Shown in pieces: positions 12,037 to 50,330 of a stretch of 64,000 bases of DNA. Source of the DNA: an uncultured Desulfobulbaceae bacterium (GTDB taxonomy: Bacteria; Desulfobacterota; Desulfobulbia; Desulfobulbales; CALZHT01); contig CALZHT010000013.1 of NCBI GenBank assembly GCA_945787445.1, forward strand, positions 54,079 through 118,078. Reading direction: 5' to 3'. Position 1 is the first letter of the stretch. Every line of letters begins with the position of its first letter. The notes beneath the pieces were generated by a model that was given only the letters and a program-made list of their open reading frames with translations, had not been told where the DNA came from and searched no databases. A program made the position numbers and the translations under genes.

Positions 12037-12177
12037 ATTCAGATCTCCTGAACTCGAGGATTTACGATGATACCAGCGTTGATAATCTCCGTACGGAAGA
12101 GTGCCTAAAGTTTGAAGTGCCTAAAGTGCCTAAAGTTTAAGAATTTATCTAATCAGAAAAGTACCATAACTTTAGGC
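12037..12177 (+). repeat. family B hairpin element, copy B1 (right arm truncated)
   Basis: 5' module ATTCAGATCTCCTGAACTCGAGGATTTACGATGATA..TTGATAAT, then a left arm of AGTGCCTAAAGT units, a loop, and a right arm that stops at AACTTTAGGC. Confidence 0.85.
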
Positions 12178-12741: not shown

Positions 12742-13080
12742 TTACAAGGCATCGGTGCTTTCGCATTTGTTGCGTATTTTCATGAGCCGGTTGACGTTTG
12801 ACACAACGATGATGCCGTCGCCGCTGAAACCGGTGCAGGAGGCCTCCCGGATGATGTCCACCAGCCGCAAGTCGTCACGGTCGCTGCAGATCACCTCCAG
12901 TTTCACCATCTTTGTGACCCTGCGGCCGAACTCCATGTTTATCTTGGCATCGCCGTTGTCAACGTGTTTGCCGACGGCCAGAACATGGTCGACCGTGGCA
13001 TGGATAGCCCCGGCATCCTGCAAGGCGTCAAGGGTTTCCCGCGCCTTGTCGGCCCGAATGATGGCTTTAATCTCCTTCAT
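12742..13080 (-). CDS. P-II (GlnB-like) family protein associated with metal efflux
   Basis: 112 aa with a P-II-like pattern: MKEIKAIIR...TV..V...G...KLEV.C.D...TG..GDG.I.V. Its start overlaps the cusA-like stop by 14 nt. Confidence 0.7.
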   Translation of the reverse strand: MKEIKAIIRADKARETLDALQDAGAIHATVDHVLAVGKHVDNGDAKINMEFGRRVTKMVKLEVICSDRDDLRLVDIIREASCTGFSGDGIIVVSNVNRLMKIRNKCESTDAL

Positions 13081-16000
13081 AATGCACCTCTTCTTCTGGT
13101 AAGGTTTTACGCGTAAAGATCTGCCGCAGTTCCCAACGTTTCCAGATATCGTATACCGCAGGGATAATGATCAGGGTAAGGATGGTTGAGGAAAGAAGCC
13201 CGCCGACCATGGGCGCGGCGATGCGTTTCATGACCTGGGACCCTGTCTCGGTGCCTATCATGACAGGAAGCAGACCGATCAGGGTGGTGGCCACGGTCAT
13301 CAGCTTGGGCCGTACCCTATCCGCGGCACCCTCGATGATGGAAGCGTGCAGGTCCTCATGGGATGTCATTTGCGCATGTCTCTTGCGGCGGTTAAAGGAT
13401 TCGTCAAGATAGACCAGCATCACGACGCCAGTCTCGGCCGCAAGGCCGGCCAGGGCAATGAAGCCCACCACCACGGCCACCGAAAGGTTATAGTTCAGAA
13501 TATACAAAAGCCAGACGCCGCCCACCAGGGCAAAGGGCAGGCTGGCCATGACAATCAAGGCCTCGATCATGTTCTGGAAATGGATAAAGAGCAGGACAAA
13601 GATAACGGCAATGGTCACCGGAATGATAATATTTAAAGTTTTACGCGCTTTTTCCATGTATTCGTATTGCCCGGACCAGATAATGGAATACCCGGAAGGA
13701 AAAGCAATTTCATTTTCAACGATTTCCTTGGCCGTTTTTACGTAAGACCCCACATCGACGCCCTTGAGATCCACGTAGATCCAAGCGGTCTGCCGGGAAT
13801 TTTCGCTTTTGATTGCCGGCGGGCCTTTGACCAGGTTGATGTCGGCAAATTGGGCCAGGGGTATCTGGGCCCCGGTGGGAGTGGAAACCAGGACGCGCTT
13901 CACCTGCTCGATGTCATCCCGCAGTTCCCGGGTATACCGTAGACTCACCGGATAGCGTTCAAGGCCTTCCACGGTATAGGTGACGTTCATACCGCCAATG
14001 GCCGTGGAAATGACATCCTGCACATCGCCTACTGTGAGTCCGTAACGGGCTATCTGATCGCGGCGAATGGTAAAATCCAGGAAATTACCGCCCGTGACCC
14101 GTTCGGAATAGGCGGATAAGGTGCCTGGAATATCGCGGACCAACGCTTCGATTTTCGATCCCAAATCCGCTAGCACTTCAAGATCAGGACCCATAAGCTT
14201 GATGCCCACCGGGGTTTTTATGCCGGTTGACAGCATGTCGATCCTGGTCTTGATCGGCATGGTCCAAGCATTGGTCAGCCCTGGAAACTGGATGGCACTA
14301 TTAAGATCGTCAGCTAACTCGTCGATGGTTATATAACGCTCTTCCGGCCAGATGAAGGTGAACGGCATTTTGATCCAGCCGGGCCAGCCGGAAAAGAAGC
14401 GCTCTATTTTCCTTTTGCGCCACTGGTCAAGGATCTTGCCCTGTTTCTTTTCAGGCAGGATAAGGTTGAGCGGGCCTTTAAGCCATTCGGGCCAGCCGGA
14501 AAAGAAGCGGTCCACGGTTATGGTTTCATAGGTGACTTTCGGTTTCAGAGTGATGGTGGTTTCAATCATGGAAAGGGGCGCCGGGTCCGTGGCGGTCTCG
14601 GCCCTGCCGATCTTGCCCAGGGTATGGTCCACTTCCGGAAAACTCTGGATGATTTTATCGGTCTGCTGCAGGATTTCCTTGGCCTTGGTGATGGACAGGC
14701 CGGGACCAGCTGGCGATGATGACAAAGGTAGCGATGAGCATTGTAATTTTGGGCCATGTGAGCACCTGGGTAATAACAGGCAGGTAGGTGCGTACAAAGA
14801 ATTTGCTTAACGGATTGCGCTTTTCAGCGATCAGCCGCTGCGGGACCAGGAAGATCGCGGCAAAAAGGGAGACTGCCAATGCTGCAAGTAATGACCAGCC
14901 CGGCAACTCAAGCCCGGCAAGGCCGCCGATGATGACCAGCAAAGGCGGCGCCCCGATTGCCGCTGCCCAGGAAATGGTTTTTTTCTTTCGGCTCATTGCC
15001 GGGGGCAGAGCATGTTCGCGGATAAAGAAGGTCATGAGCACCGGGATGATGGTGACGGCCAGGATGGAGGATGCCGCCATGGCAAAGGTCTTGGTATAGG
15101 CCAGGGGTTTGAAGAGGCGGCCGGATTGTTCCTGCAGGGCAAACACCGGCAGGAACGATATGGTGATGATCAGCAGGCTGTAAAACAGGGCCGGTCCCAC
15201 CTCCTTGGAGGCATCGACGATGATCTGCAGGTGGGTCTTGCTCCCCTTTTCTTTTTCCAGATGTTTGTGGGCGTTTTCCACCAGCACTACCGAGGCGTCC
15301 ACCATGACGCCGATGGCAATGGCAATGCCGCCTAGGCTCATGATAGTGGCATTTATGCCCAGAAAATACATGCCAAGAAACGACATGAGGATCCCTACCG
15401 GCAGGGTGAAGATGGCCACAAAGGCTGAGCGGAAATGGAGCAGGAATACCACGCAGATAAGGGCCACCACGATCATTTCTTCAAGGAGTTTTTCCTTCAG
15501 GGTGTCAACGGCGCGTAGGATCAGGTTGGAGCGGTCATAGCCGGTTTTGATCACCACCCCTTCCGGCAGCCCTTTTTCCAGCTCTTTGAGCTTTTCCTTG
15601 ACGTTTTTGATGATCTCCAGGCCGTTTTCGCCGTAACGCATCACCACAATGCCGCCCACGGTTTCGCCCTGGCCGTTCCATTCCAGTATGCCGCGCCGCA
15701 ATTCGGGCCCCACGTGGATATGGGCAATATTTTTCAGCAGGATCGGGGTCCCCATCCGGTCGACGCCCACGGCTATGATTTCCAGATCTTGCATGGAGCG
15801 GATATAGCCCAACCCCCGCACCATGAATTCAGTCTCCCCCATTTCAATGAGCTTGCCGCCCACATCCCGGTTGGAGCGCTGGATGGCCTGCTTGATTTTG
15901 CCGATGGAAAGGTTGTAGGCCAGGAGCTTGTTGGGATCGACCTCCACCTGGTACTGTTTGACGTAGCCGCCGATGGAGGCGACCTCGGAAACCCCGGGGA

Positions 16001-16511
16001 CCGCGGTGAGTTCATAGCGTAGATACCAGTCCTGGATGGACCTGAGCTGCTGCAAATCATGGCGGTCAGTGGTATCCTGCAGCACGTATTCATACACCCA
16101 GCCCACGCCGGTGGCGTCCGGGCCCAGGCTCGGGGTGACACCCTCGGGCAGCCTGCCGGCCACGAAGTTCAGGTACTCCAGGACGCGGGAACGGGCCCAG
16201 TACAGATCGGTGCCGTCTTCAAAAATGATATAAACAAAGGAGACGCCGAAAAAGGAGTAGCCCCGCACTACTTTGGCAAAAGGTACGGAGAGCATGGCCG
16301 TGGTGAGCGGATAGGTCACCTGGTCCTCAACCACCTGGGGGGCCTGGCCGGGATAATCGGTCTGGATGATAACCTGCACGTCCGAAAGATCCGGGATGGC
16401 GTCCAGCGGCGTGTTGAGCATGGCGAGAATGCCGCCCAGGATCATAAAGATAGTGGCCAGGATGACGATGAACCGGTTATTTATGGACCATTCGATGATT
16501 TTTTCTATCAT
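13067..16511 (-). pseudogene. cusA: CusA/CzcA-family heavy-metal RND pump, disrupted by internal deletion plus frameshift
   Basis: The N-terminal ORF 14655-16511 (MIEKIIEWSINNRF...DVQVIIQTDYPGQAPQVVEDQVTYPLTT) and C-terminal ORF 13067-14797 are in different frames. They meet near 14700-14715. The conserved segment between ...WPK.T.L.. and PG(I/L)S..EA...LQ.TD is missing. Confidence 0.8.
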
Positions 16512-21173: not shown

Positions 21174-21348
21174 TTCAGATTTCCTGAATTCGAGGATTTT
21201 ACGATGATATGAGCATTGATAATGCCCGTAAGAGTGCCTAAAATTCGAAGTGCCTTAAGTGCCTAAAGTTAATGTACTTGTTTTGTCAGATATTCCTTTA
21301 ACTTTAGGCACTTCGAACTTTAGTGCACTTTAGGCACTTAACTCGGTA
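21173..21348 (+). repeat. family B hairpin element, copy B2 (most complete)
   Basis: Same 5' module as B1. Left arm is GAGTGCCTAAAATTCGAAGTGCCTTAAGTGCCTAAAGTTA. Right arm is TAACTTTAGGCACTTCGAACTTTAGTGCACTTTAGGCACT. Confidence 0.9.
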
Positions 21349-24490: not shown

Positions 24491-24728
24491 CCAAAAAGAA
24501 AGGGCAGCCGTTCACTTGGTCCCGCGTTGCGTGACTACCCTGCGTGCTCAGACAGTCCTCGCGCTTAATCCGGCCAATTCTGCGCTGCTCGGCTGCGTGA
24601 AATGGCAATGTAAAAAGCTTAACTGCTAATATTGATTACCCTTTTAGATTCGCATCTTTTGCCACTCCTACTAAGGGCGGTCGTTAATTAACAGATCAAC
24701 TTAATTTAAGGTGAAGGGGAGGAAAATA

Positions 24729-25190
24729 ATGAAACTGTATCTTGTGCAGCACGCTCAGGCCACCTCCAAGGAGGAAGATTCCAGACGGCCGCTTGCCATG
24801 CAGGGGTTGGATGACATCAGAAAGGTTGCGGAATATGGCGCAGCCCATTGCGCCATTATCGTTGATAAGGTATTGCACAGCGGCAAACTGCGTGCCCAGC
24901 AGACGGCGGACGCCCTTGCTTCTACGATGAATCTGCCGGCGCCGGAGGAAACCGACGGCCTGGAACCTCTTGCCGATCCTTCACTCTGGGCGGATCGCCT
25001 TGCAGAAAATGAGGATGATCTGATGCTGGTGGGCCATCTGCCCCATATGGCCAGGCTTGCCTCCTTTCTGCTGTGCAAGGATGCAGACAGGGGTGTGGTC
25101 CGCTTTCAGATGGGTGGTGTTGTCGCTCTTGAACGGGACGATTCTTTTCAATGGTCGCTGAGCTGGATGATTGTCCCAGCGATTCTGTAA
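24729..25190 (+). CDS. sixA: phosphohistidine phosphatase SixA-like
   Basis: MKLYLVQHA start (RHG-type histidine phosphatase N-terminus, LVQHA...) and HSGKLRAQQTA. RBS AAGGGGAGG. Confidence 0.75.
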   Translation: MKLYLVQHAQATSKEEDSRRPLAMQGLDDIRKVAEYGAAHCAIIVDKVLHSGKLRAQQTADALASTMNLPAPEETDGLEPLADPSLWADRLAENEDDLMLVGHLPHMARLASFLLCKDADRGVVRFQMGGVVALERDDSFQWSLSWMIVPAIL

Positions 25191-25210
25191 TGTCTTTGTG
25201 GTAATAGTCT

Positions 25211-25457
25211 CAGTTAAGGTAAGTACCCCTTCCTTTCAATTAGGCAGCTTTAGGTCGTATTTGTTATTTTCGTGCTCGTGCGCGTAATCGTGTAATCGAT
25301 TTTCCTTGTATTCATAATCAAACACAGAATGCTTCCTTTTCAATTACGATTACGATTACGAGCACGAAAACGTTACAAACGGATCTTTTTGACCCGTATC
25401 CGGACTTTCAGTCCTTTGCATTCAAAATCCATCGTCTTCAGACGGAGGCTGTTGGGT
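25211..25457 (+). repeat. family A structured element, copy A1
   Basis: Aligns over its full length with A2-A4. It carries 3 CGATTA-type units and 1 AGCACG unit in the right arm. Confidence 0.9.
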
Positions 25458-25493
25458 CTCTACACCCCTTCTCCTTGGCTTGTGGGCCAAAGG

Positions 25494-26057
25494 TTAAAAA
25501 TGCTGGTCGGTAAGTTCCAGAAACTGAGAAACTGAGGTCACATAGGTCGGCTCCGGCTCGGGCTCTTCCAGCAGTTCAACAGTAAAGAGCTGTTTTTTTA
25601 TTGGATCCTGCCGGATAATCCATAATTTCCATTCCGCTCCTTCTTTGAAAAGGATGCATCCCCTTTTACCGCTGGCATGCCAGAGATCCTGGAAAGGTAC
25701 TTTGGCTGTTGCACCATTTCTGAGTTTGAGAATGTTGCTCTCTCTTTCCTCAATGAAAGTACTGTATGCCGGTATTCCCGAGGGTAGAGCAATGTCAGAT
25801 TCGCCTGCAATTCGGCCTGTATGTTGTTTGTTCTGAGTGGAGGATTTGTAAGCTATTATAGCAGTGGCAATGTCATCCGAATTGAAGTGCAGGAGAGATT
25901 GATCCGCGACACACACCCCTTCAATAAGAGAGTACCCTATCTCACAACTGGGATTTCCGGAAAAATCCTTTGGATTTGAAATATCAATGAGATTTGCAAA
26001 AGATAGCGAATGTATCAACAGAAAGAATACAAAGCATATACACCATAGCTTTTTCAT
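25494..26057 (-). CDS. secreted hypothetical protein, 187 aa
   Basis: RBS GGAGGAG before ATG 26057. Signal peptide MKKLWCICFVFFLLIHSLSFA. No family recognised. Confidence 0.6.
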   Translation of the reverse strand: MKKLWCICFVFFLLIHSLSFANLIDISNPKDFSGNPSCEIGYSLIEGVCVADQSLLHFNSDDIATAIIAYKSSTQNKQHTGRIAGESDIALPSGIPAYSTFIEERESNILKLRNGATAKVPFQDLWHASGKRGCILFKEGAEWKLWIIRQDPIKKQLFTVELLEEPEPEPTYVTSVSQFLELTDQHF

Positions 26058-26300
26058 GGATCTCCTCCCCACCAGAAAGAATTTCGAAGGTTTGTTCCTT
26101 ATAAATGCATAAGTACTGTGGCATCAAACCAGCTGCCCCCCAAGTCGCCGGTCGTGATACATGTATATATGAAAAATGGAGGCGATGAAGTCAACCATAA
26201 AATAGCCAGAGAGGAGAGATTGTGCCATGGATGGACCTGCGGAGGATTCTAATGATAGTTGCTCGTTTGTTTCCTACTTAATTCTGCCGGGAGTCTTGAT

Positions 26301-26315
26301 TTGCCAAAATGGCAA
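26301..26315. promoter_or_regulatory. palindrome TTGCCA-AAA-TGGCAA, candidate activator site
   Basis: Perfect 6-3-6 inverted repeat about 80 bp upstream of the sigma-54 promoter at 26390. Confidence 0.35.
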
Positions 26316-26389
26316 AAAATCGTGCCATAATGACAGGAATAAACGCCACTCAATTTTATAAGTATTTAATATTGTTACTTTTTTCGTGT

Positions 26390-26405
26390 TGGCATGGAAT
26401 TGGCA
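26390..26405 (+). promoter_or_regulatory. sigma-54 (-24/-12) promoter
   Basis: TGGCATGGAATTGGCA: GG and GC at exact consensus spacing with one mismatch (TGGC for TTGC). It is 75 nt upstream of ATG 26480. Confidence 0.6.
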
Positions 26406-26479
26406 ATAGTATAAAAGCAAAGAGCAAAAAAAGGATTCAAAAAGGCAACAAGAGAAAAAAGTATAACAGGAGGAACATC

Positions 26480-26692
26480 ATGAACACCACAATGACAAAA
26501 AATAAAACCAGGACTCAGGGAATTGCATCCGTTAATACTGGAACAGCTGCAGTAACAAAAGGCGGCATGGCTGTCTTGGCCGGTTCATCTGCACTGGTTG
26601 GCATTTGGGCAACTGCCTGCATGGCAATAGCACTCGTATCCAGCGGACCTGCTGAACTTATCAGAGGTTGGTTAGGGGCAGTGATTGGCTAA
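26480..26692 (+). CDS. small single-pass membrane protein, paralog 1 (70 aa)
   Basis: RBS AGGAGG. MNTTMTKNKTRTQG...SSALVGIWATACMAIALV...IRGWLGAVIG. Paralogous to the next ORF. Confidence 0.7.
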   Translation: MNTTMTKNKTRTQGIASVNTGTAAVTKGGMAVLAGSSALVGIWATACMAIALVSSGPAELIRGWLGAVIG

Positions 26693-26729
26693 GAATCTGT
26701 AAATAGAATTTCTCAGTGAGGCGACGACC

Positions 26730-26945
26730 ATGACCAGGACATTGGCAAAAACCAAAAACAAGACAAAAGAGATTGAAAGCACCCAGGCCGGTATTGATTC
26801 CGTTTCCAAAAGCAGCCTTATTGCCATGGGGGTAATCTCAGCACTGGTCGGCCTTTGGGCCTTGGCCTGCCTGATCAGCGCTATTTCAGGCGGCGGGCTT
26901 ATGGAGATGACCCAGGGATTGTTCACGGCCTTAACTGGAAAGTAG
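26730..26945 (+). CDS. small single-pass membrane protein, paralog 2 (71 aa)
   Basis: MTRTLAKTKNKTKE...ISALVGLWALACLISAIS...TQGLFTALTGK. The shared core with paralog 1 is SALVG(I/L)WA.AC. Confidence 0.7.
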   Translation: MTRTLAKTKNKTKEIESTQAGIDSVSKSSLIAMGVISALVGLWALACLISAISGGGLMEMTQGLFTALTGK

Positions 26946-27002
26946 AAAGAGGTTAAAGAAGCACGCTTCAGATTTCCTTCTGTAAGATATCAAAATAAAA
27001 AA

Positions 27003-27043
27003 GCCCATTCCGAGGATCGAAAGATTGCGGAATGGGCTTTTTT
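27003..27043 (+). terminator. intrinsic (bidirectional-looking) terminator
   Basis: GCCCATTCCG...CGGAATGGGC 10-bp stem, with an A run before and T6 after. Confidence 0.85.
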
Positions 27044-27050
27044 ATTGTCG

Positions 27051-27315
27051 CAGTTAAGGTTAATACCCCCCTGCCTTTCATGCAGGCAGCTATAGCTCGT
27101 ATTTGTTGTTTTCGTGCTCGTGCGCGTAATCGTAATCGATTTTCCTTGTATTCATAATCAAACACGTAATGCTTCCTTTTCGATTACGGTTACGGTTACG
27201 GTTACGATTACGATTACGAGCACGAGCACGATACAAACGGATCTATTTGAGCCGTACCGGACTTTCCAGTCCTTTTTATTCAAAACCCACCGTCTTTAGA
27301 CGGAGGTTGTTGAGT
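27051..27315 (+). repeat. family A structured element, copy A2
   Basis: Full-length copy with 6 CG(A/G)TTA units and 2 AGCACG units. Its last 36 nt overlap the 3' end of the ykgJ-like ORF. Confidence 0.9.
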
Positions 27316-27861
27316 AATGATGTCCCTGATGGAGATTCGTTGAACTGGTAAGTGCCCTATTTTTTGGCTAAATTTTTCGTTTAGAGTAGCAAGTATTGCA
27401 TTGAATTGGTCCATCAGGAGCAAGTCATCGATCCCAAATTCCGCATCTTCCGAAAAATTAACAGGGCAGGCAGAGACCTCGATCGTCTCGTTATTATTAT
27501 TTACATATCCAACAGGCAAGCCGTGGGTGCGGCAGATGAGGGGCCTTGCCTGATATACGCTGCAGAGGTTTTCGATCAGAAATGGGCAGGCTCTGTTTTT
27601 ATTTTTTGCCTGACTGTGAATTATTTGGATTACGTCATTGCTTAATGCGTTGAATGCCTCTTGCAAAATCTCTGCTTCCAAAGGCAAGACGCTCAGTTCC
27701 TTACAGCACTTGATACAGCCGGGCCTGCACTGAAGTATACCCTTATATTGCTTTTCCAGCTTGCGGATTTCATTGTTAACATCTTCCATAAGTTTTTTGT
27801 AGTCATTAAAACAAATCATCGCTGCATAGTAGCGCTGATCCGATAATTTTGGAATATCCAA
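27280..27861 (-). CDS. YkgJ-family cysteine-cluster protein
   Basis: CRPGCIKCCK and ACPFLIENLCSVYQARPLICRTHG motifs. The last 11 codons and the stop lie inside repeat A2. Confidence 0.75.
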   Translation of the reverse strand: MDIPKLSDQRYYAAMICFNDYKKLMEDVNNEIRKLEKQYKGILQCRPGCIKCCKELSVLPLEAEILQEAFNALSNDVIQIIHSQAKNKNRACPFLIENLCSVYQARPLICRTHGLPVGYVNNNNETIEVSACPVNFSEDAEFGIDDLLLMDQFNAILATLNEKFSQKIGHLPVQRISIRDIITQQPPSKDGGF

Positions 27862-28018
27862 AATAAAGACATATTGATCAGCCTGAAGAAGAGAAGCAGG
27901 ATGTGCTTTTCAGCAAGCCGCGGAAAGTTTCATTCTTAACATGGAATTCATTTCGGTTCAAATTATGTTTGACAATCCCTTTTCAAGCTTGCCAAGATTT
28001 TAGTGAGGTCAAAATATG

Positions 28019-28261
28019 TGGCAGCCGGCTTAAGCTCGTATTTGTTATATTCGTGCTCGTGCGCGTAATCGTAATCGATTTTCCTTGTATTCATAATCAA
28101 ACACGTAATGTTTCCTTTTCGATTACGATTACGATTACGATTACGATTACGATTACGATTGCGAGCACGAGCACGATACATACGGGCCTATTTGACCTGT
28201 ATCCGGACTTTCTAGTCCTTTTTATTCAAAACCCACTGTCTTTAGACGGAGGTTGTTGAGT
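28019..28261 (+). repeat. family A structured element, copy A3 (5' hairpin module missing)
   Basis: Aligns from GGCAGCCGGCTTAAGCTCGTATTTG to GGAGGTTGTTGAGT. It has 7 CGATTA units plus 2 AGCACG units. Confidence 0.9.
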
Positions 28262-28264
28262 TAT

Positions 28265-28897
28265 ATGGGAGTGTTGAAGGTAAGAGGCTTCCAAACTGCT
28301 AGGAGTTCAATTGGGTCCTTTTTCTCCATGGGACCCTTTGTCGCCGTAATTACCTTGATCATGGTTTTCATGGCAGGAACAGCGGCGGCAAATGAAGTAA
28401 TGGGGAAGGGAGGTGGCGCCATGGCATTTATTATTGTTTCGGATGTGTTTCGGCACAAAGGAGGGATACCAAGCGATTACACTTGTGACGGAAGGGATGT
28501 TTCTCCGCCCTTGGAATGGTCGGGAGCACCTATAGGCACAAAGAGCCTGGCTCTTATCGTGGATGATCCGGATGCCCCGGACCCGGCTGCACCGAAAATG
28601 ACCTGGGTGCACTGGGTGTTGTATAATATTCCGCCTGAGATAAACGGGTTGGCTGAAGACGTTGAACCCAGCCAGCTTCCGGATGGAATTAAGGAGGGGA
28701 CCAATAACTGGAACCGCACCCGATACGGCGGACCCTGCCCACCCATTGGCACCCATCGATATTTCCATAAACTCTATGCCCTGGACACTGTGCTGCCTGA
28801 CTTAAAAAAACCTTCCAAGGAGAAGCTTTTGCAGGCAATGGAGGGACATATTCTGGCCAAGGCGGAATTGATTGGTACCTACGATCGATCCCGTTAG
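28265..28897 (+). CDS. YbhB/YbcL family PEBP-like protein with N-terminal signal/TM segment
   Basis: YTCDGRDVSPPLEWSGAP, LIVDDPDAP and GPCPP.GTHRY.F.LYAL are typical of bacterial PEBP. The start is uncertain: TTG 28253, ATG 28265 or ATG 28328. Confidence 0.8.
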   Translation: MGVLKVRGFQTARSSIGSFFSMGPFVAVITLIMVFMAGTAAANEVMGKGGGAMAFIIVSDVFRHKGGIPSDYTCDGRDVSPPLEWSGAPIGTKSLALIVDDPDAPDPAAPKMTWVHWVLYNIPPEINGLAEDVEPSQLPDGIKEGTNNWNRTRYGGPCPPIGTHRYFHKLYALDTVLPDLKKPSKEKLLQAMEGHILAKAELIGTYDRSR

Positions 28898-28936
28898 TAT
28901 CAGGAATTCTGGTGTCGGGATTGATAGAGGTTTTAA

Positions 28937-29563
28937 TTGACAATGGCTGGCCTCCTTTCATTGGCAGCTTTGTGGATATTGTGGTGTATCATCCACAGCC
29001 TGCTCATTTCCCTTCCGGTTATCGCCTGGATGAAGCAGCGTCTTGGAAAGCGATTCGCCTTTTACCGTCTCTTTTATGTGATTACCAGTATTATCACCTT
29101 AATTCCTGTTGTCGCATATCAATACTCCCTTGAACAACAGATTTTTTTCACCTGGACCGGACCGTGGCGGCTGGTCCAGATGTTTTTGTTTATCTATGCA
29201 TTGATCCTCTTTGCCGGAGGGGCGGCAGTCTACGACCTTAAATATTTCATGGGCATCAGCCAGGCATTGGATTACTTGGCCCAAAAAGGTTCATTAGACA
29301 TTCATTTTGAAACCAAGGGAATGCTTCATTATGTACGGCACCCCTGGTATTCAGGCGGTATCGCTTTTGTCTGGGCCTTTGGCTCGGTAACAGACGTGAG
29401 CCTGGTGAGCAAGGGAGTTTTGACGGTGTATCTGATCTTGGGGACGATACTTGAGGAATGGAAACTTGTGAAAGAGATCGGCGCGCCGTACCGCAGGTAT
29501 CAGAGCAAAGTGCCCATGCTGATTCCAAGGTTTCGAAAAAATCCTGCAACGGGCAAAGATTGA
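28937..29563 (+). CDS. membrane methyltransferase, PEMT/ICMT-like family
   Basis: Multi-TM protein. The C-terminal motif RHPWYSGG...LEEWKLVKEIGAPYRRYQSKVPMLIP resembles the isoprenylcysteine/phospholipid methyltransferase family. Confidence 0.65.
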   Translation: MTMAGLLSLAALWILWCIIHSLLISLPVIAWMKQRLGKRFAFYRLFYVITSIITLIPVVAYQYSLEQQIFFTWTGPWRLVQMFLFIYALILFAGGAAVYDLKYFMGISQALDYLAQKGSLDIHFETKGMLHYVRHPWYSGGIAFVWAFGSVTDVSLVSKGVLTVYLILGTILEEWKLVKEIGAPYRRYQSKVPMLIPRFRKNPATGKD

Positions 29564-29571
29564 CCTAATAT

Positions 29572-29613
29572 GCAACCACGCTTCTCGCAAATTTTTGCGA
29601 GAAGCGTGGTTGC
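29572..29613. terminator. perfect 20-bp palindrome between convergent genes
   Basis: GCAACCACGCTTCTCGCAAA-TT-TTTGCGAGAAGCGTGGTTGC. There is no flanking U-tract, so the terminator role is uncertain. Confidence 0.45.
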
Positions 29614-29875
29614 TCCCTTTCCCTCCATTTTTTACCGGAGCCGTAGTCTGTGTCTTGTCACTGACTAAATATAGTATTACCTTTATCGCTCACCGCCTCA
29701 GTGAAGCATTTCACGAAAAAAAGGTATGGTTTTGATACTTTAAAAAATGACTTATTTACAAAAGGTTAGGGGAGAGGACACCTTCTTCTATGCAAAAGTA
29801 CAGATGTTTCTGACATAGCGCCTTCGCAAAATTACGATCTACAGCAATTTTTTGTTATCTTCAGGCGCAGAGCAC

Positions 29876-32236
29876 CTAAGGTTTTCCCGCTTTGTAGTAA
29901 TAACGGTTCAAATCAAATAATCCTGATTTGATTGGTTCATCATTGTTAAAACGCTCCTGAAACCAATCATATTCGTCCCAAAAGGTATCATCTGCTCTGT
30001 TCACTCCATACTTAGAGATTCGTTCAACATATGCGGGGCTTTTTTTAAAATGTGCCAGGAGATCAAAAAAATCGGGCAGATCTTTTTCATGTACATCAAA
30101 AAAGTAATTGGGATACGAACCGATAAAGCCCTCAATGAAATGAGCACAGTCCTTTGAAGAATCGAGAGTGTCATCCTCACCAATCAGAAAGGCCACATTG
30201 TCATGCCAACGATTGAGTACAATGGAAACCACATGGTTTTCTCCACTTGCAAGGCGTATCCTTATGTAGGCAAGATTGGCATTGTAATCATCCACAATAG
30301 AGAAAATCGAAGTACCCGGTTTAGAAAGGGCACGAAAACCTTGGAGGTAGTCGGCCTTGTTTTCATACTTCGCAGGGAGTGGCGGATGAGAAGCTCCTGC
30401 CTGGAAATAGTTTATTGGATCAAACGCTATATTTGTTGCAGGCAGAATATGTTTGTTAATAATATATTCTATAAACTCACGCTTTGGGTCATCAGAAGCA
30501 AAAGATATTTTTGCAGGCATGGTAGCGGGGTAGTAGTTAATTTTCTTTAAATCCTTGTCCTTGTACCACGATTGCATAATCTCCTGCCGTTTTGTCTGAG
30601 GCAGGAAATCCAGGAAATAGCTCTCGCTTTCCACCCGGAGGGCATCCATATAAAGACGGACAGACAGCTGGTGGGCAACATTGCCGTAAACATCAAAGCC
30701 GGCAACCAACGCATAATAGATGCGTTCGAACAAAGGGTAGTCAAGAACCCACATTGTTTTTGGCAGGTTGCCAAGCACCCCCTTATGCACGGAAGCGCTG
30801 TCAAAATGGCGATATACCGTCAACACCGGGGCATCCTTACCACTGTTTCCTTTCCAGATAGCTTCATAGCCAAGACCATTATAATTGTGGGACATGTAAT
30901 AGTCCTGCCGGTCTTTATAAAACGCAACAGCCGCCTTGTGATACTCATTACTGATAGCCTTAAAGATACGATAGTCGCTTCCCTTTTCGATGGGCATTCT
31001 CAGATTGTCACTGTGCAATTTCAAAAAAGCGGGGTACCTCAAGCTCAGGTCATGCACCGGATCCAAAAACATGATCCAGAAATGATCATCAATCACATTG
31101 AGGGCGATTTGACCTTTACAGACCGGGCCCCGGATAAAAGTCATTATAATATAGTGGGCATTATCCAGTAAAAACTGATAGCGCGAGCGCGGCGGAATCT
31201 GTTCAAATGCTTTAAAAGGATTGGCGCTCAGTTTCGGATCATAGCCTACCAGATGCGGGGACTCCATCCACTCCGGTTCTATAAAGAGATCCTTGAACCG
31301 TTGGAGTTTGGCATGGTCAAGGTCAAATACCATGTGGGTTTTATGGACGATAGTTGCGTGGATCTTTCTAAAACGATAGTAGAATCTTGCCACGCCAGGA
31401 TCATCGTAAGGGCGCACCGTGGCAATAAGGTCAATGGGTTCTCCCGGCCCGCTCCTTGAACGCACCAATTCATAATATTCATTGGTCTCCGTACCGAATT
31501 TCAGATGGGCCAGAAAAAGGTGCTCGTAAAGATAGCGGGCCGTCATGGCATGCTTGGCATCGTCTGTATTGAAAAATGCCTCCCATTGGCTGATTGCCAA
31601 AGCATCACTTTCAGCAGGTGATGTGAGAATTTTTTGCTGGTCAGGGTTCGGTCCTTGAGCTCCCTGGGCCAGCCAGCCGGCAATGATCTCAAACTCTTCT
31701 TTTTTGAGGGGTGGGAAGCCGAACGGCATGCCACGGTTCGGATGTTTTTTCAGGTACCCGCCAAGCTCTACCTGGTTTTCGGAACAGGTCAGATCTTCTG
31801 CCTCAGGGCGATATTCTCCAACACTTACCGGATTTTTCATTTTATGGGAAAGCAGTTGAATCATGAGAGAGTTATTTAACTCGCCTGACACAGTACTCTC
31901 TGTGACACTGAAAAAACCCTTTTGACGCCACTCCTGCGTAGACTGGGCATCTGTAAAGAGACGGGTGGGATCCATGGTCTTCAAACGTGAGGCATGATAG
32001 ACGGGTTTTTTGGTGCCACCGCGATCAAGGCCTTCAAAAGAGCTGAGTTTGAGCTGGCATGGTGAATTGTAACAGGAATGGCACACCACACAGCGTTTAT
32101 CCAAAATTGGTTTCACCTCGCCCAGGTAATCTATCGTTCTCGATGGGATCTGGACGGCCACAGGCGCCGGCGCTTTTGCTGCACATCCGGCAAGCCATAC
32201 AACCATTGCCAAAACAAATACTATCGTACTCCTCAT
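29876..32236 (-). CDS. cti: fatty acid cis/trans isomerase (Cti), heme c-binding
   Basis: 786 aa. Lipoprotein-like signal (WLAGC). CVVCHSCYNSPCQLKLSSFEGLDRG with the CXXCH motif, as in Pseudomonas Cti. Confidence 0.8.
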   Translation of the reverse strand: MRSTIVFVLAMVVWLAGCAAKAPAPVAVQIPSRTIDYLGEVKPILDKRCVVCHSCYNSPCQLKLSSFEGLDRGGTKKPVYHASRLKTMDPTRLFTDAQSTQEWRQKGFFSVTESTVSGELNNSLMIQLLSHKMKNPVSVGEYRPEAEDLTCSENQVELGGYLKKHPNRGMPFGFPPLKKEEFEIIAGWLAQGAQGPNPDQQKILTSPAESDALAISQWEAFFNTDDAKHAMTARYLYEHLFLAHLKFGTETNEYYELVRSRSGPGEPIDLIATVRPYDDPGVARFYYRFRKIHATIVHKTHMVFDLDHAKLQRFKDLFIEPEWMESPHLVGYDPKLSANPFKAFEQIPPRSRYQFLLDNAHYIIMTFIRGPVCKGQIALNVIDDHFWIMFLDPVHDLSLRYPAFLKLHSDNLRMPIEKGSDYRIFKAISNEYHKAAVAFYKDRQDYYMSHNYNGLGYEAIWKGNSGKDAPVLTVYRHFDSASVHKGVLGNLPKTMWVLDYPLFERIYYALVAGFDVYGNVAHQLSVRLYMDALRVESESYFLDFLPQTKRQEIMQSWYKDKDLKKINYYPATMPAKISFASDDPKREFIEYIINKHILPATNIAFDPINYFQAGASHPPLPAKYENKADYLQGFRALSKPGTSIFSIVDDYNANLAYIRIRLASGENHVVSIVLNRWHDNVAFLIGEDDTLDSSKDCAHFIEGFIGSYPNYFFDVHEKDLPDFFDLLAHFKKSPAYVERISKYGVNRADDTFWDEYDWFQERFNNDEPIKSGLFDLNRYYYKAGKP

Positions 32237-32290
32237 GGTATTTTTTCCTCTAATATTTTTAAGGTGCTTTCCCCTGGTTTTTATTCGTCT

Positions 32291-32524
32291 CAGGTAAGGG
32301 TAATACCCCTGCCTTTCAGGCAGGCAGCTTTAGCTCGTATTTGTTATATTCGTGTTCGTAATCGTAATCGATTTTCCTTGTATTCATAATCAAACACGTA
32401 ATGCTTCCTTTGCGATTAGGAGCACGAGCACGAGCACGATACAAACGGGTCTATTTGATCCGTATCCGGACTTTCAGTCCTTTTCATTTAAAAACCCACC
32501 GTCTTTTGACGGAGGTTGTTGAGT
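32291..32524 (+). repeat. family A structured element, copy A4
   Basis: Full alignment with A1-A3. It has 1 CGATTA unit and 3 AGCACG units. Confidence 0.9.
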
Positions 32525-32645
32525 GGGCCTGTCCGCCTTTGGTGGATCGCAGCCCCTCGAAAACAGGATTTCCGTTTTTCTCCAATAAGCCGGGTGATTG
32601 CACTTAGAGGCAGGTATAAATGCTCACTTCGTGTGTTCAAATGAA

Positions 32646-33098
32646 TTATTCATCTACAGCGATTGCTGCTTTTATGTAACGCTCGAGCTGATCATGCTGG
32701 TCAGGATAAAGGTTTCCAAATCTGATGCCGCGGCGCACCATATCATTTCCTGGAATGGCTTTTTCATAAACAATTTCGCAGGCAGGAATTGAAAGTATCT
32801 GCACCGAATTCTTGTTAAAATCCTCATCATCAAACAGGAGATCAATCTGGAAAGGTGTTCGAGGCCATTTTCCCGTGCTCACATGGAAAAAAGCCATTCC
32901 ACCTGCGGCAAGATCGAGAATCTGCGCGATCTTTGCAATAGAAAAATGGAGGACAGCAAACGCTCCGGGTTTGGCCGTGTACCGTGTGTCTTGTCTTTGT
33001 TCGGATATAGTGGGGCCTTGCAGTAACACGACCTGCTCCTTTAGCCAATAGTTTTTTTGAAAAACGAGATACAACTCCTTCCTTCTACAGCACATCAT
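32646..33098 (-). CDS. PilZ domain protein
   Basis: RQDTR (RxxxR) followed by DLAAGGMAF (D.S..G-like). Confidence 0.6.
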   Translation of the reverse strand: MMCCRRKELYLVFQKNYWLKEQVVLLQGPTISEQRQDTRYTAKPGAFAVLHFSIAKIAQILDLAAGGMAFFHVSTGKWPRTPFQIDLLFDDEDFNKNSVQILSIPACEIVYEKAIPGNDMVRRGIRFGNLYPDQHDQLERYIKAAIAVDE

Positions 33099-35623: not shown

Positions 35624-35673
35624 GCAGAAGGCAGAAGGCACAAAGGCAGAAGGCAGAAGGCAGAAGGCAGAAG
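35624..35673 (+). repeat. heptamer array GCAGAAG x7 (family C, copy C1)
   Basis: Read directly. One variant unit is GCACAAA. Confidence 0.9.
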
Positions 35674-35792
35674 TAAAAAGGCAGACGGCGCATATTAAGC
35701 GGGGCTGCGGGGTAGACCAATAATCTGTGAGTGTCCGCCAATATCCATCTGCCGGGCTTCTTAAGGCCTCACCAAGGCTCAAGGCGGAAAGA

Positions 35793-42260: not shown

Positions 42261-42346
42261 AGAAGGCAGAAGGCAGAAGGCAGAAGGCAGAAGGCAGAAG
42301 GCAGAAGGCAGAAGGCAGAAGGCAGAAGGCAGAAGGCAGAAGGCAG
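42261..42346 (+). repeat. heptamer array AGAAGGC x12 (family C, copy C2)
   Basis: 12 perfect units read directly. It lies about 290 bp upstream of the transglutaminase operon start. Confidence 0.95.
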
Positions 42347-42409
42347 TGGCGGAAACTTGCCAAAGGATCTATGGCAACATTTTTTTATTCAGGTGAATAG
42401 TGATGATCC

Positions 42410-42598
42410 CGCAAAAAGTCGGGAAAGCGGTTAACGCGCCATGTAATTTCAACTGGTTACAAGGTTATGCATCGGTGAACTGGCAATAGCTTTGCTAGTA
42501 AGCATGGCTGAACTTATCGCCCGTTTCATCGCAAGGAACCAAAGTGGTCAACGCGTCCGCGTAGCAGACAAATCGTATTTTTTACGATTTCATCAATA
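42410..42598 (+). repeat. family F element, long form (shell plus core), copy F1
   Basis: CGCAAAAAGTCGGGAAAGCGGTTAACGCGCCATGTAATTTCAACT...AAATCGTATTTTTTACGATTTCATCAATA. The core is at 42474-42571. Confidence 0.9.
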
Positions 42599-45343: not shown

Positions 45344-45454
45344 GTCCGATGCATCCCATCATGCTTCGTCACTTGCTGCGGTGCCTGCTCACAGCGCTAC
45401 CAGGCTGCTCCGCCGGCTCCTCGCTCGTTCCTCGCCTGGCTGGGCGCCTCGAAA
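45342..45454 (+). repeat. family G element, copy G1
   Basis: AAGTCCGATGCATCCCATCATGCTTCGTCACTTGCTGCGGTGCCTGC... is shared with G2. It is bracketed by a perfect 15-bp inverted repeat (45329-45343 / 45455-45469). Confidence 0.8.
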
Positions 45455-50318: not shown

Positions 50319-50330
50319 AGTGTGTGTCAT

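What the first reader, a model, noticed from the sequence alone, without database searches (positions are those of the whole stretch)
25211..32524. Family A: four co-oriented copies of a ~235-265-bp multi-hairpin element within 7.3 kb
Copies at 25211-25457, 27051-27315, 28019-28261 and 32291-32524 align end to end. Each has four parts. (1) A small CCTGCC/GGCAGG hairpin. (2) A long imperfect hairpin with a left arm TCGTGCTCGTGCGCGTAATCGTAATCG, a conserved ~42-nt loop ATTTTCCTTGTATTCATAATCAAACACGTAATGCTTCCTTTT, and a right arm (CGATTA)n(AGCACG)n. (3) A GGAC-TTTCA-GTCC hairpin. (4) CCACCGTC-TTTA-GACGGAGG, which on the minus strand reads as an intrinsic terminator (stem plus GUUUUG). Three copies lie immediately downstream of minus-strand genes. 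I see no transposase, terminal inverted repeats or target duplications, and I do not recognise the element. It could be a multicopy structured RNA, a terminator-carrying MITE-like element or a protein-binding array.
Basis: seen in the sequence. Interest (0 to 1): 0.65.

Follow-up and report, generated by a model that had tools for sequence, protein, structure and literature searches.

The report
Orphan multi-hairpin intergenic repeat family
Four copies of a roughly 250-base non-coding DNA repeat built from hairpins sit between ordinary chromosomal genes of an uncultured Syntrophales-like bacterium; it is most likely a lineage-specific "junk-plus-terminator" repeat of the kind many bacteria carry, and not a new kind of system.

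Summary
Four co-oriented copies (about 25200-25457, 27043-27315, 28019-28261, 32281-32524) are 86-91% identical. A profile search finds no other copy in the 64-kb window. Two corrections apply: A3 lacks the first hairpin and A1's first hairpin is decayed.

- **Non-coding.** No reading frame survives across copies.
- **No known RNA family and no structural support.** Rfam gives no match. There is no covariation and no strand bias in folding energy.
- **No mobility genes or ends found.** The window has no terminal inverted repeats, transposase or integrase.
- **Discrete insertion.** A2 supplies the last 11 codons and the stop of a YkgJ-like gene. A3 supplies the Shine-Dalgarno sequence of a PEBP gene.
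- **Terminator-like right end.** On the minus strand this hairpin is the first terminator-like site after three minus-strand genes.
- **Slippage-prone arms.** The hexamer arms vary between copies and between two strains.
- **Constrained core.** A 42-column central core is invariant (permutation p = 0.0003).
- **Fifth copy.** A protein-level search found a diverged copy on another NCBI contig, so the family is not purely local.

Best reading: a lineage-specific mosaic intergenic repeat (BIME/BOX-like) that acts passively as a transcription stop, with a core bound by some protein. A plus-strand sRNA family remains a live rival. Interest is modest.

The parts
25200..25457 (+). Copy A1. It lies between the convergent SixA-like gene (+, stop 25190) and an unknown secreted-looking gene (-, stop 25494). 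It is the most decayed copy: hairpin 1 is broken and there is a 2-nt insertion in the left arm.
27043..27315 (+). Copy A2, the reference copy. It starts at the T-tail of a perfect 19-bp bidirectional terminator (26994-27046). Its right end encodes the last 11 codons (TQQPPSKDGGF) and the stop of the YkgJ-like gene.
28019..28261 (+). Copy A3, 5'-truncated (no hairpin 1). It lies in the divergent region between the YkgJ-like (-) and PEBP (+) genes. The PEBP ATG at 28265 is 4 nt past the element, and its GGAGG (28248-28252) is the 3' arm of the terminal hairpin. The MAG strain has 3 fewer hexamer units at 28144-28161.
32281..32524 (+). Copy A4. It lies between two minus-strand genes. Its left end is about 45-50 nt upstream of the fatty-acid cis/trans isomerase ATG (32236). 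Its right end is 121 nt after the stop of 32646-33098.
27070..27086 (.). Hairpin 1 in A2 (CCTGC-CTTTCAT-GCAGG). The loop is TTTCA-type, as in hairpins 3 and 4.
27112..27138 (.). Left arm in A2: (CGTGCK)2(CGTAAT)2CG.
27125..27165 (.). Invariant core in A2 coordinates: the end of the left arm plus the first 27 nt of the loop. It forms a run of 42 ungapped invariant columns among the four copies (permutation p = 0.0003).
27139..27180 (.). The 42-nt 'loop' ATTTTCCTTGTATTCATAATCAAACACGTAATGCTTCCTTTT. It carries two UUCCUU motifs on the plus strand (AAGGAA on the minus strand). Its internal CGTAAT can pair with the first right-arm unit to form an inner hairpin.
27181..27231 (.). Right arm in A2: (CGRTTA)6(CGAGCA)2CGA. 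The unit number varies between copies and between strains.
27237..27255 (.). Small hairpin 2b (ACGGATC-TATTT-GAGCCGT), imperfect in 3 of 4 copies.
27259..27272 (+). Hairpin 3, GGACT-TTCC-AGTCC followed by TTTTTATT. It is weakly terminator-like on the plus strand in all four copies (5-bp stem, about -5.5 to -6.7 kcal/mol on the plus strand).
27278..27315 (-). Terminal hairpin 4 in A2. The core is CCACCGTC-TTTA-GACGGAGG, extended by ATTCAAAACC/GGTTGTTGAGT. On the minus strand the stem is followed by GTTTTGAAT. It is the first terminator-like site behind the minus-strand gene.
25428..25446 (-). Terminal hairpin 4 in A1 (minus-strand terminator-like).
28233..28252 (.). Terminal hairpin 4 in A3 (CCACTGTC variant). 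It was not flagged as a minus-strand terminator, and no minus-strand gene lies upstream of it.
32495..32513 (-). Terminal hairpin 4 in A4 (minus-strand terminator-like, tail TTTTTAAA).

Best explanation
Family A is a lineage-specific, non-coding, modular intergenic repeat. It belongs to the same general class as the BIME/REP, BOX, ERIC and Correia elements and the 'multicopy nucleotide sequences' of Geobacter.

**Build.** The centre is an inverted pair of slippage-prone hexanucleotide arrays around a sequence-constrained core of about 42 bp. Small hairpins that share a TTTCA-type loop flank it. The right end is a hairpin that looks like an intrinsic terminator in both directions, with the better U-tract on the minus strand.

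**Shown.** The element is a discrete unit that has been copied into at least five places. It landed in or next to gene ends, and in one case it replaced the tail and stop codon of a gene.

**Inferred.**
- Copying was by an unidentified trans-acting enzyme or by recombination. No such gene lies in the window.
- Once in place, the right-end hairpin stops transcription of the adjacent minus-strand gene and insulates neighbouring units. The long stem would make any read-through RNA a double-strand-specific RNase target.
- The invariant core is the part recognised by a protein, either the mobilising enzyme or a nucleoid protein of the IHF/HU type.
- The hexamer arrays expand and contract by replication slippage, with no functional meaning of their own.
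For: - **Discrete unit.** The boundaries are sharp and the flanks unrelated; one copy is 5'-truncated.
- **Age.** Copies are 86-91% identical, whereas two strains of the organism differ by only about 0.1% over the 11.6-kb region. The copies are therefore old and are not a recent segmental duplication.
- **Insertion into a gene end.** A2 provides the last 11 codons and the stop of the YkgJ-like protein. Homologues have unrelated tails of similar length after the last conserved motif.
- **Contribution to a gene start.** A3 provides the GGAGG 12 nt before the PEBP start codon.
- **Varied contexts.** The four copies sit in convergent, convergent, divergent and tandem gene arrangements. This argues against a gene-specific cis-regulator.
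- **Terminator placement.** A minus-strand terminator-like hairpin is present in A1, A2 and A4. It is the only such site between the stop codons of three minus-strand genes and the next feature.
- **Non-coding.** Indels of 1-2 nt break every frame across the copies.
- **Slippage.** The number of hexamer units differs between copies (about 1 to 8) and by 3 units between strains.
- **Constrained core.** The invariant run has permutation p = 0.0003.
- **Not purely local.** A fifth, diverged copy lies on a different NCBI contig of 29.7 kb.
- **Ordinary setting.** The region is plain chromosome, with EF-G, MurJ, LpxK, PEPCK and similar genes.
- **Other short-repeat families.** The same window holds other short-tandem-repeat hairpin families. 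G. metallireducens has paired inverted arrays of 3-5 tandem repeats of about 7-9 nt in intergenic regions (PMC2700814).
Against: - No mobilising gene, terminal inverted repeats or target-site duplication were found. Mobility is therefore inferred only from the boundaries and the gene overlap.
- The four copies are tightly clustered: all lie within 7.3 of 64 kb, about p = 0.005 by my own scan-statistic estimate. This is unusual for dispersed repeats.
- No empty site could be compared, because the nearest relatives (75-77% CTI identity) share no synteny.
- The terminator role is only a consensus match. The stem has an internal mismatch and the U-tract is only four or five U (four in A1-A3, five in A4). 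A4 sits between the CTI gene and any upstream promoter, so the hairpin cannot be a tight terminator there unless the element itself carries a promoter. No promoter was detected.
- Stronger conservation of the centre than of the ends is the opposite of what classical transposase-end recognition predicts.
- Genome-wide copy number is unknown.
Confidence: 0.45

Rival explanations
1. Family A is a family of paralogous trans-acting small RNA genes on the plus strand. The RNA would start near the left boundary and present the conserved CU-rich core (UUUUCCUU ... CUUCCUUUU, anti-Shine-Dalgarno-like) in the loop of a long stem. It would end at hairpin 3 or hairpin 4. The terminal hairpin would double as the terminator of the convergent minus-strand gene.
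For: - The most conserved part is a single-stranded 'loop', as with the seed regions of Qrr- or LhrC-type paralogues (the comparison is from my own knowledge).
- Two hairpins followed by U-rich tracts lie at the plus-strand 3' end in all four copies.
- By my hand count on the pair table, 8 one-sided stem changes keep a G-U pair when read on the plus strand, against 2-3 that would do so only on the minus strand.
- The terminal hairpin is slightly more stable on the plus strand in 3 of 4 copies.
- Three of four copies are convergent with the neighbouring gene, a common sRNA arrangement.
Against: - No Rfam family matches, even at E up to 5.
- There is no covariation; the covariation term is +2.1.
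- Total folding energy is the same on both strands, -332 versus -329 kcal/mol.
- No sigma-70-like promoter was found at the left end or in the core of any copy. A3 lacks the 5' module altogether.
- The plus-strand terminators are weak: a 5-bp stem, or a UUGUUG tail.
- In A3 such terminators would sit directly in front of the PEBP start codon.
- A perfect stem of about 26 bp made of microsatellite units is atypical for sRNAs.
Confidence: 0.2
2. Family A is a DNA-level protein-binding array. The two inverted hexamer arrays and the conserved spacer would be bound by a nucleoid-associated or regulatory protein (IHF/HU-like or a dedicated regulator) that organises or co-regulates this group of small accessory genes. 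The small hairpins would be incidental.
For: - The core is invariant at the nucleotide level, with no strand preference in structure.
- The core contains AATCAAACACGTA, which matches 8 of the 9 specified positions of the E. coli IHF consensus WATCAANNNNTTR. The consensus is from my own knowledge and the match is post hoc.
- The design parallels the paired inverted arrays of tandem repeats (about 7-9 nt) in G. metallireducens. Those authors suggested, without testing, that the arrays are IHF/HU sites (PMC2700814).
- An HU/IHF-family gene lies in the window at about 1821-2093.
Against: - The number of hexamer units is unstable, about 1-8 between copies and 3 units between strains. That is hard to reconcile with a defined binding geometry.
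- The IHF-like match is low in information and is not improved in the fifth copy.
- The copies sit in all kinds of gene arrangements, including between convergent gene ends where there is nothing to regulate.
- No binding data exist.
Confidence: 0.15
3. Family A elements are recombination sites that delimit gene cassettes, an integron-like or CALIN-like array. Each element would mark the end of a 1-3-gene module brought in by site-specific recombination.
For: - Four co-oriented structured repeats are separated by 0.7-4 kb modules of small accessory-type genes.
- Homology ends in all four copies exactly at GTTGAGT or GTTGGGT, which fits the attC R' core GTTRRRY (the consensus is from my own knowledge).
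- The copies are tightly clustered.
Against: - No inverse core (RYYYAAC) lies at the left end, and the two ends do not pair.
- The length of 243-273 bp exceeds the roughly 57-141 bp of attC sites.
- The element folds as several independent hairpins, not one bulged hairpin.
- Genes between the sites point both ways and include a 786-aa enzyme.
- No integrase was found among the 36 ORFs scanned across the 64-kb window.
- A2 lies inside a gene's 3' end.
Confidence: 0.04
4. Family A is a small-protein gene or a type I toxin-antitoxin-like repeat. A short ORF would be read through the core: on the minus strand, AAGGAAG-6 nt-GTG giving VFDYEYKENRL..., or MNTRKIDYDYAHEHE....
For: - A Shine-Dalgarno-like AAGGAAG lies 6 nt before a GTG in the core of all copies.
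- Gene callers predicted ORFs in two copies: a 66-aa ORF in the MAG's A3 and the 49-aa P0175.
- The E. coli LDR and QUAD repeats set a precedent for intergenic repeats that turned out to be such loci (my own knowledge).
Against: - No frame is preserved. A 2-nt insertion and a stop in A1, 1-nt indels in A2, A3 and A4, and a 1-nt insertion in the fifth copy switch frames.
- The C-termini differ completely between copies.
- The peptides are hydrophilic and low in complexity, unlike type I toxins.
- Core invariance is at the nucleotide level, with no excess of synonymous change.
- No homologous protein family exists beyond the single P0175.
Confidence: 0.03

Closest known systems
BIME / REP elements of enterobacteria, especially BIME-1 (RIP) with two inverted REPs around a central IHF-binding motif
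   Same: Both are non-coding mosaics of hairpins in intergenic regions, often just after stop codons. Both have inverted arms around a conserved central segment. Both are linked to transcription termination and mRNA 3'-end effects. Both are specific to a narrow lineage.
   Different: There is no REP-type palindrome with a conserved 5' GTAG. The arms here are tandem hexamers. No RAYT transposase was seen. Only five copies are known so far, four of them clustered. IHF binding is untested.
BOX elements of Streptococcus pneumoniae (boxA-boxB(n)-boxC)
   Same: Both are modular elements with a variable number of an internal repeated module. Both have strong predicted secondary structure, lie in intergenic regions, have no coding capacity and have no known dedicated transposase.
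   Different: The variable module here is a 6-nt unit that changes by slippage, not a 45-bp box. The sequence and the host phylum are unrelated. The conserved centre is a unique 42-nt core.
'Multicopy nucleotide sequences' and paired tandem-repeat sites of Geobacter metallireducens (Aklujkar et al. 2009, PMC2700814)
   Same: The host belongs to a related phylum-level group. Both are intergenic families made of 3-5 short tandem repeats (7-9 nt) arranged as pairs on opposite strands with a spacer. Function is unknown, and the authors proposed protein binding or small RNAs. The present window also holds heptamer and 11-mer repeat families of this style.
   Different: The sequences are unrelated. 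Family A has additional hairpin modules and a terminator-like end. The Geobacter families have tens of copies spread around the genome.
Correia elements / MITEs
   Same: Both are small non-autonomous repeats that can overlap gene ends, supply terminators or ribosome-binding sequences, and have a central conserved site.
   Different: MITEs are defined by terminal inverted repeats and target-site duplications. Both were looked for here and not found.
IS200/IS605-derived palindrome-associated elements (PATEs)
   Same: Both lack terminal inverted repeats and target duplications. Both have subterminal hairpins at both ends; here hairpins 1 and 4 share a C-rich 5' arm and a TTT(C)A loop. In both, the copies share one orientation.
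   Different: No Y1 transposase or TnpB lies in the window. No conserved target tetranucleotide could be defined from three left junctions. The centre is more conserved than the ends.
Integron attC arrays (CALINs)
   Same: Both are co-oriented structured repeats between short gene modules. The right boundary fits GTTRRRY.
   Different: There is no inverse core and no single bulged hairpin. The element is twice the maximal attC length. No integrase is present. Gene orientation is mixed.
Paralogous sRNA families with conserved seed loops (Qrr1-5, LhrC1-5, CcsR1-4)
   Same: Both comprise several clustered, co-oriented copies with an almost invariant unpaired segment rich in CU, and hairpins at one end.
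   Different: There is no promoter, no expression evidence, no covariation and no Rfam match. The long perfect microsatellite stem is atypical.

Membership tests
MITE (e.g. Correia element) | Terminal inverted repeats at both ends | tested here: not met
   The inverted-repeat search of 24900-32800 finds only internal arms. The ends share at most CTCA...TGAG by eye.
MITE (e.g. Correia element) | Target-site duplication flanking each copy | tested here: not met
   The flanks of the four copies show no direct repeat next to the boundaries.
REP/BIME | REP unit of 20-40 nt: an imperfect palindrome with a conserved 5' tetranucleotide, associated with a RAYT gene, in tens to hundreds of copies | tested here: not met
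   The arms are tandem hexamers, not REP palindromes. No Y1-transposase domain was found among the ORFs scanned. Genome-wide copy number is not testable.
BOX-like / mosaic intergenic repeat (descriptive class) | Non-coding, modular, hairpin-forming, several copies in intergenic DNA, variable number of an internal module | tested here: met
Integron attC site | R'' (RYYYAAC) and R' (GTTRRRY) at opposite ends that pair with each other | tested here: not met
   GTTGAGT or GTTGGGT lies at the right end in 4 of 4 copies, but there is no inverse core at the left end and the ends do not pair in any fold.
Integron attC site | Single imperfect hairpin of about 57-141 nt with extrahelical bases | tested here: not met
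   The element is 243-273 nt long and folds into 4-5 separate hairpins.
Integron attC site | IntI integrase nearby (or a CALIN of co-oriented promoterless cassettes) | tested here: not met
   No integrase was found among the 36 ORFs scanned across the 64-kb window. Genes between the sites are on both strands.
IS200/IS605-derived PATE | Subterminal hairpins at both ends, with no terminal inverted repeats or target duplications | tested here: met
   Hairpin 1 starts about 25 nt from the left end and hairpin 4 reaches the right end.
IS200/IS605-derived PATE | A cognate Y1 transposase (TnpA) in the genome and a conserved 4-5-nt target 5' of the left end | not testable with these tools
The three left junctions (..TAATAG..TTATTG..TTATTC) are too few and too similar to the element itself to define a target.
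Known RNA family (Rfam 15) | Covariance-model score at or above the gathering threshold | tested here: not met
   No match at gathering score. At E up to 5 there are only chance-level hits such as a miRNA precursor, psRNA14 and VR-RNA, all far below their thresholds.
Structured RNA (generic) | Compensatory base changes that support the helices | tested here: inconclusive
   One of 56 predicted pairs has a double change, and that one is in a spurious outer helix. The covariation term is +2.1. Four sequences at about 88% identity give no power.
Intrinsic terminator (hairpin 4, minus strand) | GC-rich stem followed directly by a U-tract, placed after a stop codon | tested here: met
   The consensus scan flags A1, A2 and A4; energies are -8 to -15 kcal/mol. 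This is a pattern match only. Termination itself is not testable here.
Type I toxin-antitoxin / small-protein gene | A reading frame conserved across copies | tested here: not met
   Frames are broken by 1-2-nt indels and stops.

The most novel reading that the evidence does not exclude
The elements are genes for a new family of plus-strand regulatory RNAs. Their invariant CU-rich core, displayed on a long stem, would pair with ribosome-binding sites of target mRNAs. The hexamer-repeat stem, which changes length between strains, would tune processing or stability. A less likely variant is that they are a new kind of about 250-bp recombination site that assembles gene modules.
Probability: 0.15. 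Interest if true: 0.6.

Novelty: new member of a known kind. Interest (0 to 1): 0.3.

Why it matters
Lineage-specific intergenic repeats are common, so one more family is not surprising in itself. It has some practical value. The family breaks or confuses gene calling, producing spurious 49-72-aa ORFs and altering a gene's C-terminus. It supplies a stop codon, a ribosome-binding sequence and probably terminators to neighbouring genes. It also contains a strain-variable hexamer microsatellite usable as a typing marker for an uncultured Syntrophales-like lineage. If the invariant core proved to be an RNA seed or a protein-binding site, it would give a handle on regulation in a group with no genetics. 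That remains speculative.

Tried and rejected
**Database scans**
- Exact-pattern scans with the core 20-mer or 22-mer gave no true hits. GTDB species genomes returned only six chance hits, in Acinetobacter, KSB1 and Woesearchaeota. JGI metagenomes returned nothing and IMG/VR returned nothing.
- A gapped pattern for the 3' module also found nothing in JGI metagenomes.
- Caveat: the fifth copy differs at the last base of my 20-mer and 22-mer, so these negatives are weaker than they look.
- blastn of A2 against PLSDB plasmids and INPHARED phages hit only short unrelated stretches, mostly the hexamer run.

**Protein-level searches**
- A word-indexed protein search with concatenated element-frame peptides found nothing.
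- The exhaustive phmmer search then found one hit, P0175. Its contig could not be fetched.

**Relatives and synteny**
- The nearest CTI homologues are 75-77% identical and share no neighbouring genes. Their loci contain no element.
- The MAG of the same species (GCA_945787035.1) gave only contigs that lie inside the window.
- A second NCBI assembly with a 147.8-kb contig is not indexed.

**Hypotheses rejected**
- Coding capacity was rejected because frames are broken.
- attC, MITE and REP membership were rejected on defining features (see the membership table).
- A sigma-70 promoter in the core or at the left end was not found: only one 9/12 match, and only in A1. Sigma-54-like GG-N10-GC motifs, checked by eye, are not conserved between copies.
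- A CsrA-sponge idea (minus-strand AUACAAGGA and AAAGGAAG in the core) was dropped. There are only about 3 GGA motifs per element, which is no more than composition predicts (my estimate).
- A dif/Xer-like site in the core shares only TTATG and was rejected by eye.
- Calling the strand from folding energy gave no difference.
- A 15-nt complementarity between A1's loop and 25645-25659 (I17) is at chance level.

Full report
**1. The observation**

The region 25000-32800 was read directly. A repeat search, an alignment and a profile search all confirm four co-oriented copies of one element.
- The 27-nt core ATTTTCCTTGTATTCATAATCAAACAC occurs exactly four times, against none expected.
- An nhmmer profile built from the four copies finds them at E 1e-87 to 1e-94. 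It finds nothing else in the 64-kb window, even at E = 10.
It ends sharply at ...GACGGAGGYTGTTGRGT (25457, 27315, 28261, 32524). The flanks are unrelated.
- Pairwise identity over ungapped columns is 86-91%.

- A3 is 5'-truncated and has no first hairpin.
- The first hairpin of A1 is decayed to about three pairs.

The hexamer runs are confirmed by TRF. The CGATTA unit (reported as ATTACG in A1) occurs 3.2, 6.5 and 7.5 times in A1, A2 and A3. GAGCAC occurs 3.3 times in A4.

Both strands fold far better than shuffled controls (z about -7.5). That is expected for a DNA palindrome and does not by itself indicate an RNA.

**2. Context**

The window is ordinary chromosome of a Gram-negative organism.
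- It carries EF-G, MurJ, KdtA, LpxK, ComEC, PEP carboxykinase, an RND efflux operon, tRNAs and a c-di-GMP riboswitch.
- The best named homologues of its fatty-acid cis/trans isomerase are from Syntrophales/Syntrophaceae MAGs, at only 75-77% identity.
- None of the 36 ORFs scanned across the window is an integrase, transposase or reverse transcriptase.

The genes around the four copies are small accessory-type genes.

| Coordinates | Strand | Product |
|---|---|---|
| 24711-25190 | + | SixA |
| 25494-26072 | - | unknown, secreted-looking protein |
| 26480-26692 and 26730-26945 | + | two 70-aa membrane proteins, followed by a perfect 19-bp bidirectional terminator |
| 27280-27819 | - | YkgJ-type Cys-cluster protein |
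| 28265-28897 | + | PEBP |
| 28937-29563 | + | NnrU/MddA-like methyltransferase |
| 29876-32236 | - | cis/trans isomerase |
| 32646-33098 | - | unknown 150-aa protein |

The copies therefore sit in convergent (A1, A2), divergent (A3) and tandem (A4) gene arrangements.

**3. Same locus in a second strain**

A MAG contig (GCA_945787035.1, CALZGY010000086.1 = L007) carries the same 11.6 kb with about 0.1% substitutions; BLAST identity counting indels is 99.5-99.9%.
- Within the elements the only differences are one substitution in A1's terminal hairpin and an 18-nt (three-unit) deletion in A3's CGATTA run.
- The hexamer arrays therefore change by whole units on a very short time scale.
- The copies differ from each other by 9-14%, so they are roughly a hundred times older than the strain split. 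This rules out a recent segmental duplication.

**4. Not coding**

Six-frame translation shows open frames through the core on both strands. Gene callers have predicted ORFs in some copies.
- A 2-nt insertion and a stop in A1, and 1-nt indels in the loop of hairpin 3 (A2, A3) and before hairpin 4 (A4), shift every frame.
- The C-termini of all candidate peptides differ between copies.
- The core is invariant at the nucleotide level, not merely at the amino-acid level.

**5. Not a known RNA, and no evidence for RNA structure selection**

- Rfam 15 gives no match at gathering scores. At E up to 5 it gives only chance-level matches.
- RNAalifold gives a positive (penalising) covariation term. Only one double change is seen, and it lies in a spurious outer helix.
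- Summed minimum free energies of the four copies are the same on the two strands, -332 versus -329 kcal/mol.
- A weak hint favours the plus strand. By my hand count on the pair table, about eight one-sided stem substitutions give G-U when read on the plus strand, against two or three that would do so only on the minus strand. The terminal hairpin is also a little more stable on the plus strand in three copies.
- With four close sequences, none of this is decisive either way.

**6. Signs of insertion**

- The YkgJ-like protein (P0121, 179 aa) ends ...RDIITQQPPSKDGGF. The codons for TQQPPSKDGGF and the stop lie inside the right end of A2 (27315 down to 27280). The other three copies encode the same peptide, or close variants of it, outside any gene.
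- Homologues of the protein end with unrelated tails of similar length after the last conserved motif. The element therefore landed in the 3' end of the gene and now supplies its tail and stop codon.
- In A3, the GGAGG of the terminal hairpin lies 12 nt before the PEBP ATG, which is 4 nt past the element.
- A2 begins at the last bases of the T-tail of a canonical terminator.
- These are the typical side effects of small bacterial repeats that insert at gene ends.
- Terminal inverted repeats and target duplications were looked for and not found.

**7. The right-hand end as a terminator**

- The consensus scan flags the minus-strand hairpin CCTCCGTC-NAAA-GACGGTGG followed by GTTTTGAAT in A1, A2 and A4.
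- In each case it is the first and only terminator-like site after the stop codon of a minus-strand gene (36 nt, overlapping, and 121 nt).
- The scan also flags GGAC-TTTCA-GTCC followed by TTTTTATT on the plus strand in all four copies. That stem has only five pairs (-5.5 to -6.7 kcal/mol on the plus strand).
- The two hairpins face each other across an A/T-rich spacer, the layout of a bidirectional stop.
- This is a pattern match, not proof. The stem carries an internal mismatch and the U-tract is short.
- A4 lies between the isomerase gene and any upstream promoter. Either the stop is leaky or the element carries an undetected promoter.

**8. The constrained core**

- Among 206 ungapped columns, 78% are invariant.
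- The longest invariant run is 42 columns: the end of the left arm plus the first 27 nt of the loop. A run that long arises in 0.03% of column permutations.
- Something other than shared ancestry therefore keeps the centre constant.
- The core carries two UUCCUU motifs on the plus strand (AAGGAA on the minus strand) and a near match to the IHF core. Both are low-information, post hoc observations.
- All three small hairpins share a TTTCA/TTTA loop on different stems. This suggests a common recognition feature or a common origin.

**9. A fifth copy**

All DNA pattern scans of public collections were negative, as were the blastn searches of plasmids and phages. An exhaustive phmmer search with the 72-aa minus-strand ORF of A3 against 1.84 billion representative proteins returned one hit.
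- The hit is P0175, a 49-aa predicted protein from an NCBI assembly, on a 29.7-kb contig.
- tblastn shows that it matches the minus strand of all four copies, in two frames. It is a translation of a fifth, diverged copy at another locus.
- From the peptide, that copy has a 1-nt insertion and at least three substitutions in the loop. One of these falls on the last base of my scan patterns, so those scans would have missed it.
- Its right arm is the perfect complement of the left arm, so the G-A mismatch shared by A1-A3 is absent.
- Its first hairpin has changed by a deletion plus a substitution, yet can still pair in a shifted register. This last point rests on parsimonious back-translation.
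- The contig could not be retrieved.
- The family is thus not confined to the 7.3-kb cluster. Its true copy number and host range remain unknown.

**10. Interpretation**

The best-supported reading is a lineage-specific, non-coding mosaic repeat of the BIME/BOX/ERIC/Correia type.
- It is a discrete unit copied to several sites.
- It tolerates truncation and decay.
- It overlaps gene ends, carries a terminator-like hairpin that is well placed for three genes, and contains a hypervariable microsatellite.

The same window holds other short-tandem-repeat families: AGAAGGC arrays, and facing arrays of GTGCCTAAAGT. The related bacterium Geobacter metallireducens is documented to carry many intergenic 'multicopy nucleotide sequences', including paired inverted arrays of tandem repeats of about 7-9 nt with unknown function (PMC2700814). 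I put this reading at about 0.45.

The main rivals are as follows.
- A plus-strand sRNA family (0.2) would explain the invariant loop best, but it lacks a promoter, covariation and strand bias.
- A DNA-level protein-binding array is at 0.15.
- An attC-like cassette boundary (0.04) and a small-protein gene (0.03) fail defining tests.

Two observations fit the favoured reading poorly: the tight clustering (about p = 0.005 by my estimate) and the fact that the centre, not the ends, is the conserved part. Both should be kept in mind.

**11. Verdict**

The family is new as a sequence family but belongs to a well-known kind of bacterial genome feature. Interest is 0.3. A complete genome and one strand-specific transcriptome would settle the question.

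Noticed in passing
window 35629-35703 and 42262-42346: There are tandem arrays of the heptamer AGAAGGC in two intergenic regions: about 6 imperfect units at the first site and about 12 perfect units at the second. This is a second short-tandem-repeat family.
   Followed up: no
window 12040-12157, 21176-21339, 51232-51277: A family is built from 3 tandem units of GTGCCTAAAGT, preceded by a shared leader of about 60 nt. At 21227-21339 two arrays face each other as a hairpin, the same design principle as the Family A arms. The MAG contig L007 breaks at 21440, right next to it.
   Followed up: partly
window 50249-50320, 58386-57 (+), 42396-42448, 59960-60012 (inverted): A repeat family of about 70 nt (…GTTGAAATTACATGGCRCGTTAACCGCTTTYCCGGCTTTTTRCGAG) occurs in four intergenic sites in both orientations, at 86-91% identity.
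   Followed up: no
window 54534-54612 (-): A c-di-GMP-I riboswitch scores 61 bits, above its gathering score.
   Followed up: no
window 13067-16511 (-): An AcrB-type RND pump is split into two overlapping ORFs: 14655-16511 matches model positions 1-498 and 13067-14797 matches 637-1018. This is a possible frameshift, pseudogene or sequencing error.
   Followed up: no
window 26994-27046 and 29572-29613: There are two perfect palindromes with 19-nt and 20-nt arms. The first has A- and T-tracts on both sides. They are canonical bidirectional terminators after the small membrane-protein genes and after the NnrU-like gene.
   Followed up: partly
window 24543 and 27955, compared with L007: The MAG strain carries a 53-nt insertion at 24543 and a 15-nt insertion (TTTTTTTAATGGTTC) at 27955, relative to the window.
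   Followed up: no
window 45339-45388 and 63796-63845: A 50-nt direct repeat at 96% identity occurs 18.5 kb apart (D11).
   Followed up: no
window 26480-26692 and 26730-26945 (+): Two adjacent genes of about 70 aa encode membrane proteins (…SSALVGIWA… and …SALVGLWA…). They appear to be tandem paralogues with no family assignment.
   Followed up: no
window about 1821-2093 (-) (L014 11117-11389): An HU/IHF-family DNA-binding protein gene (PF00216) lies near the left end of the window. It is relevant only as a candidate binder for repeat families.
   Followed up: no
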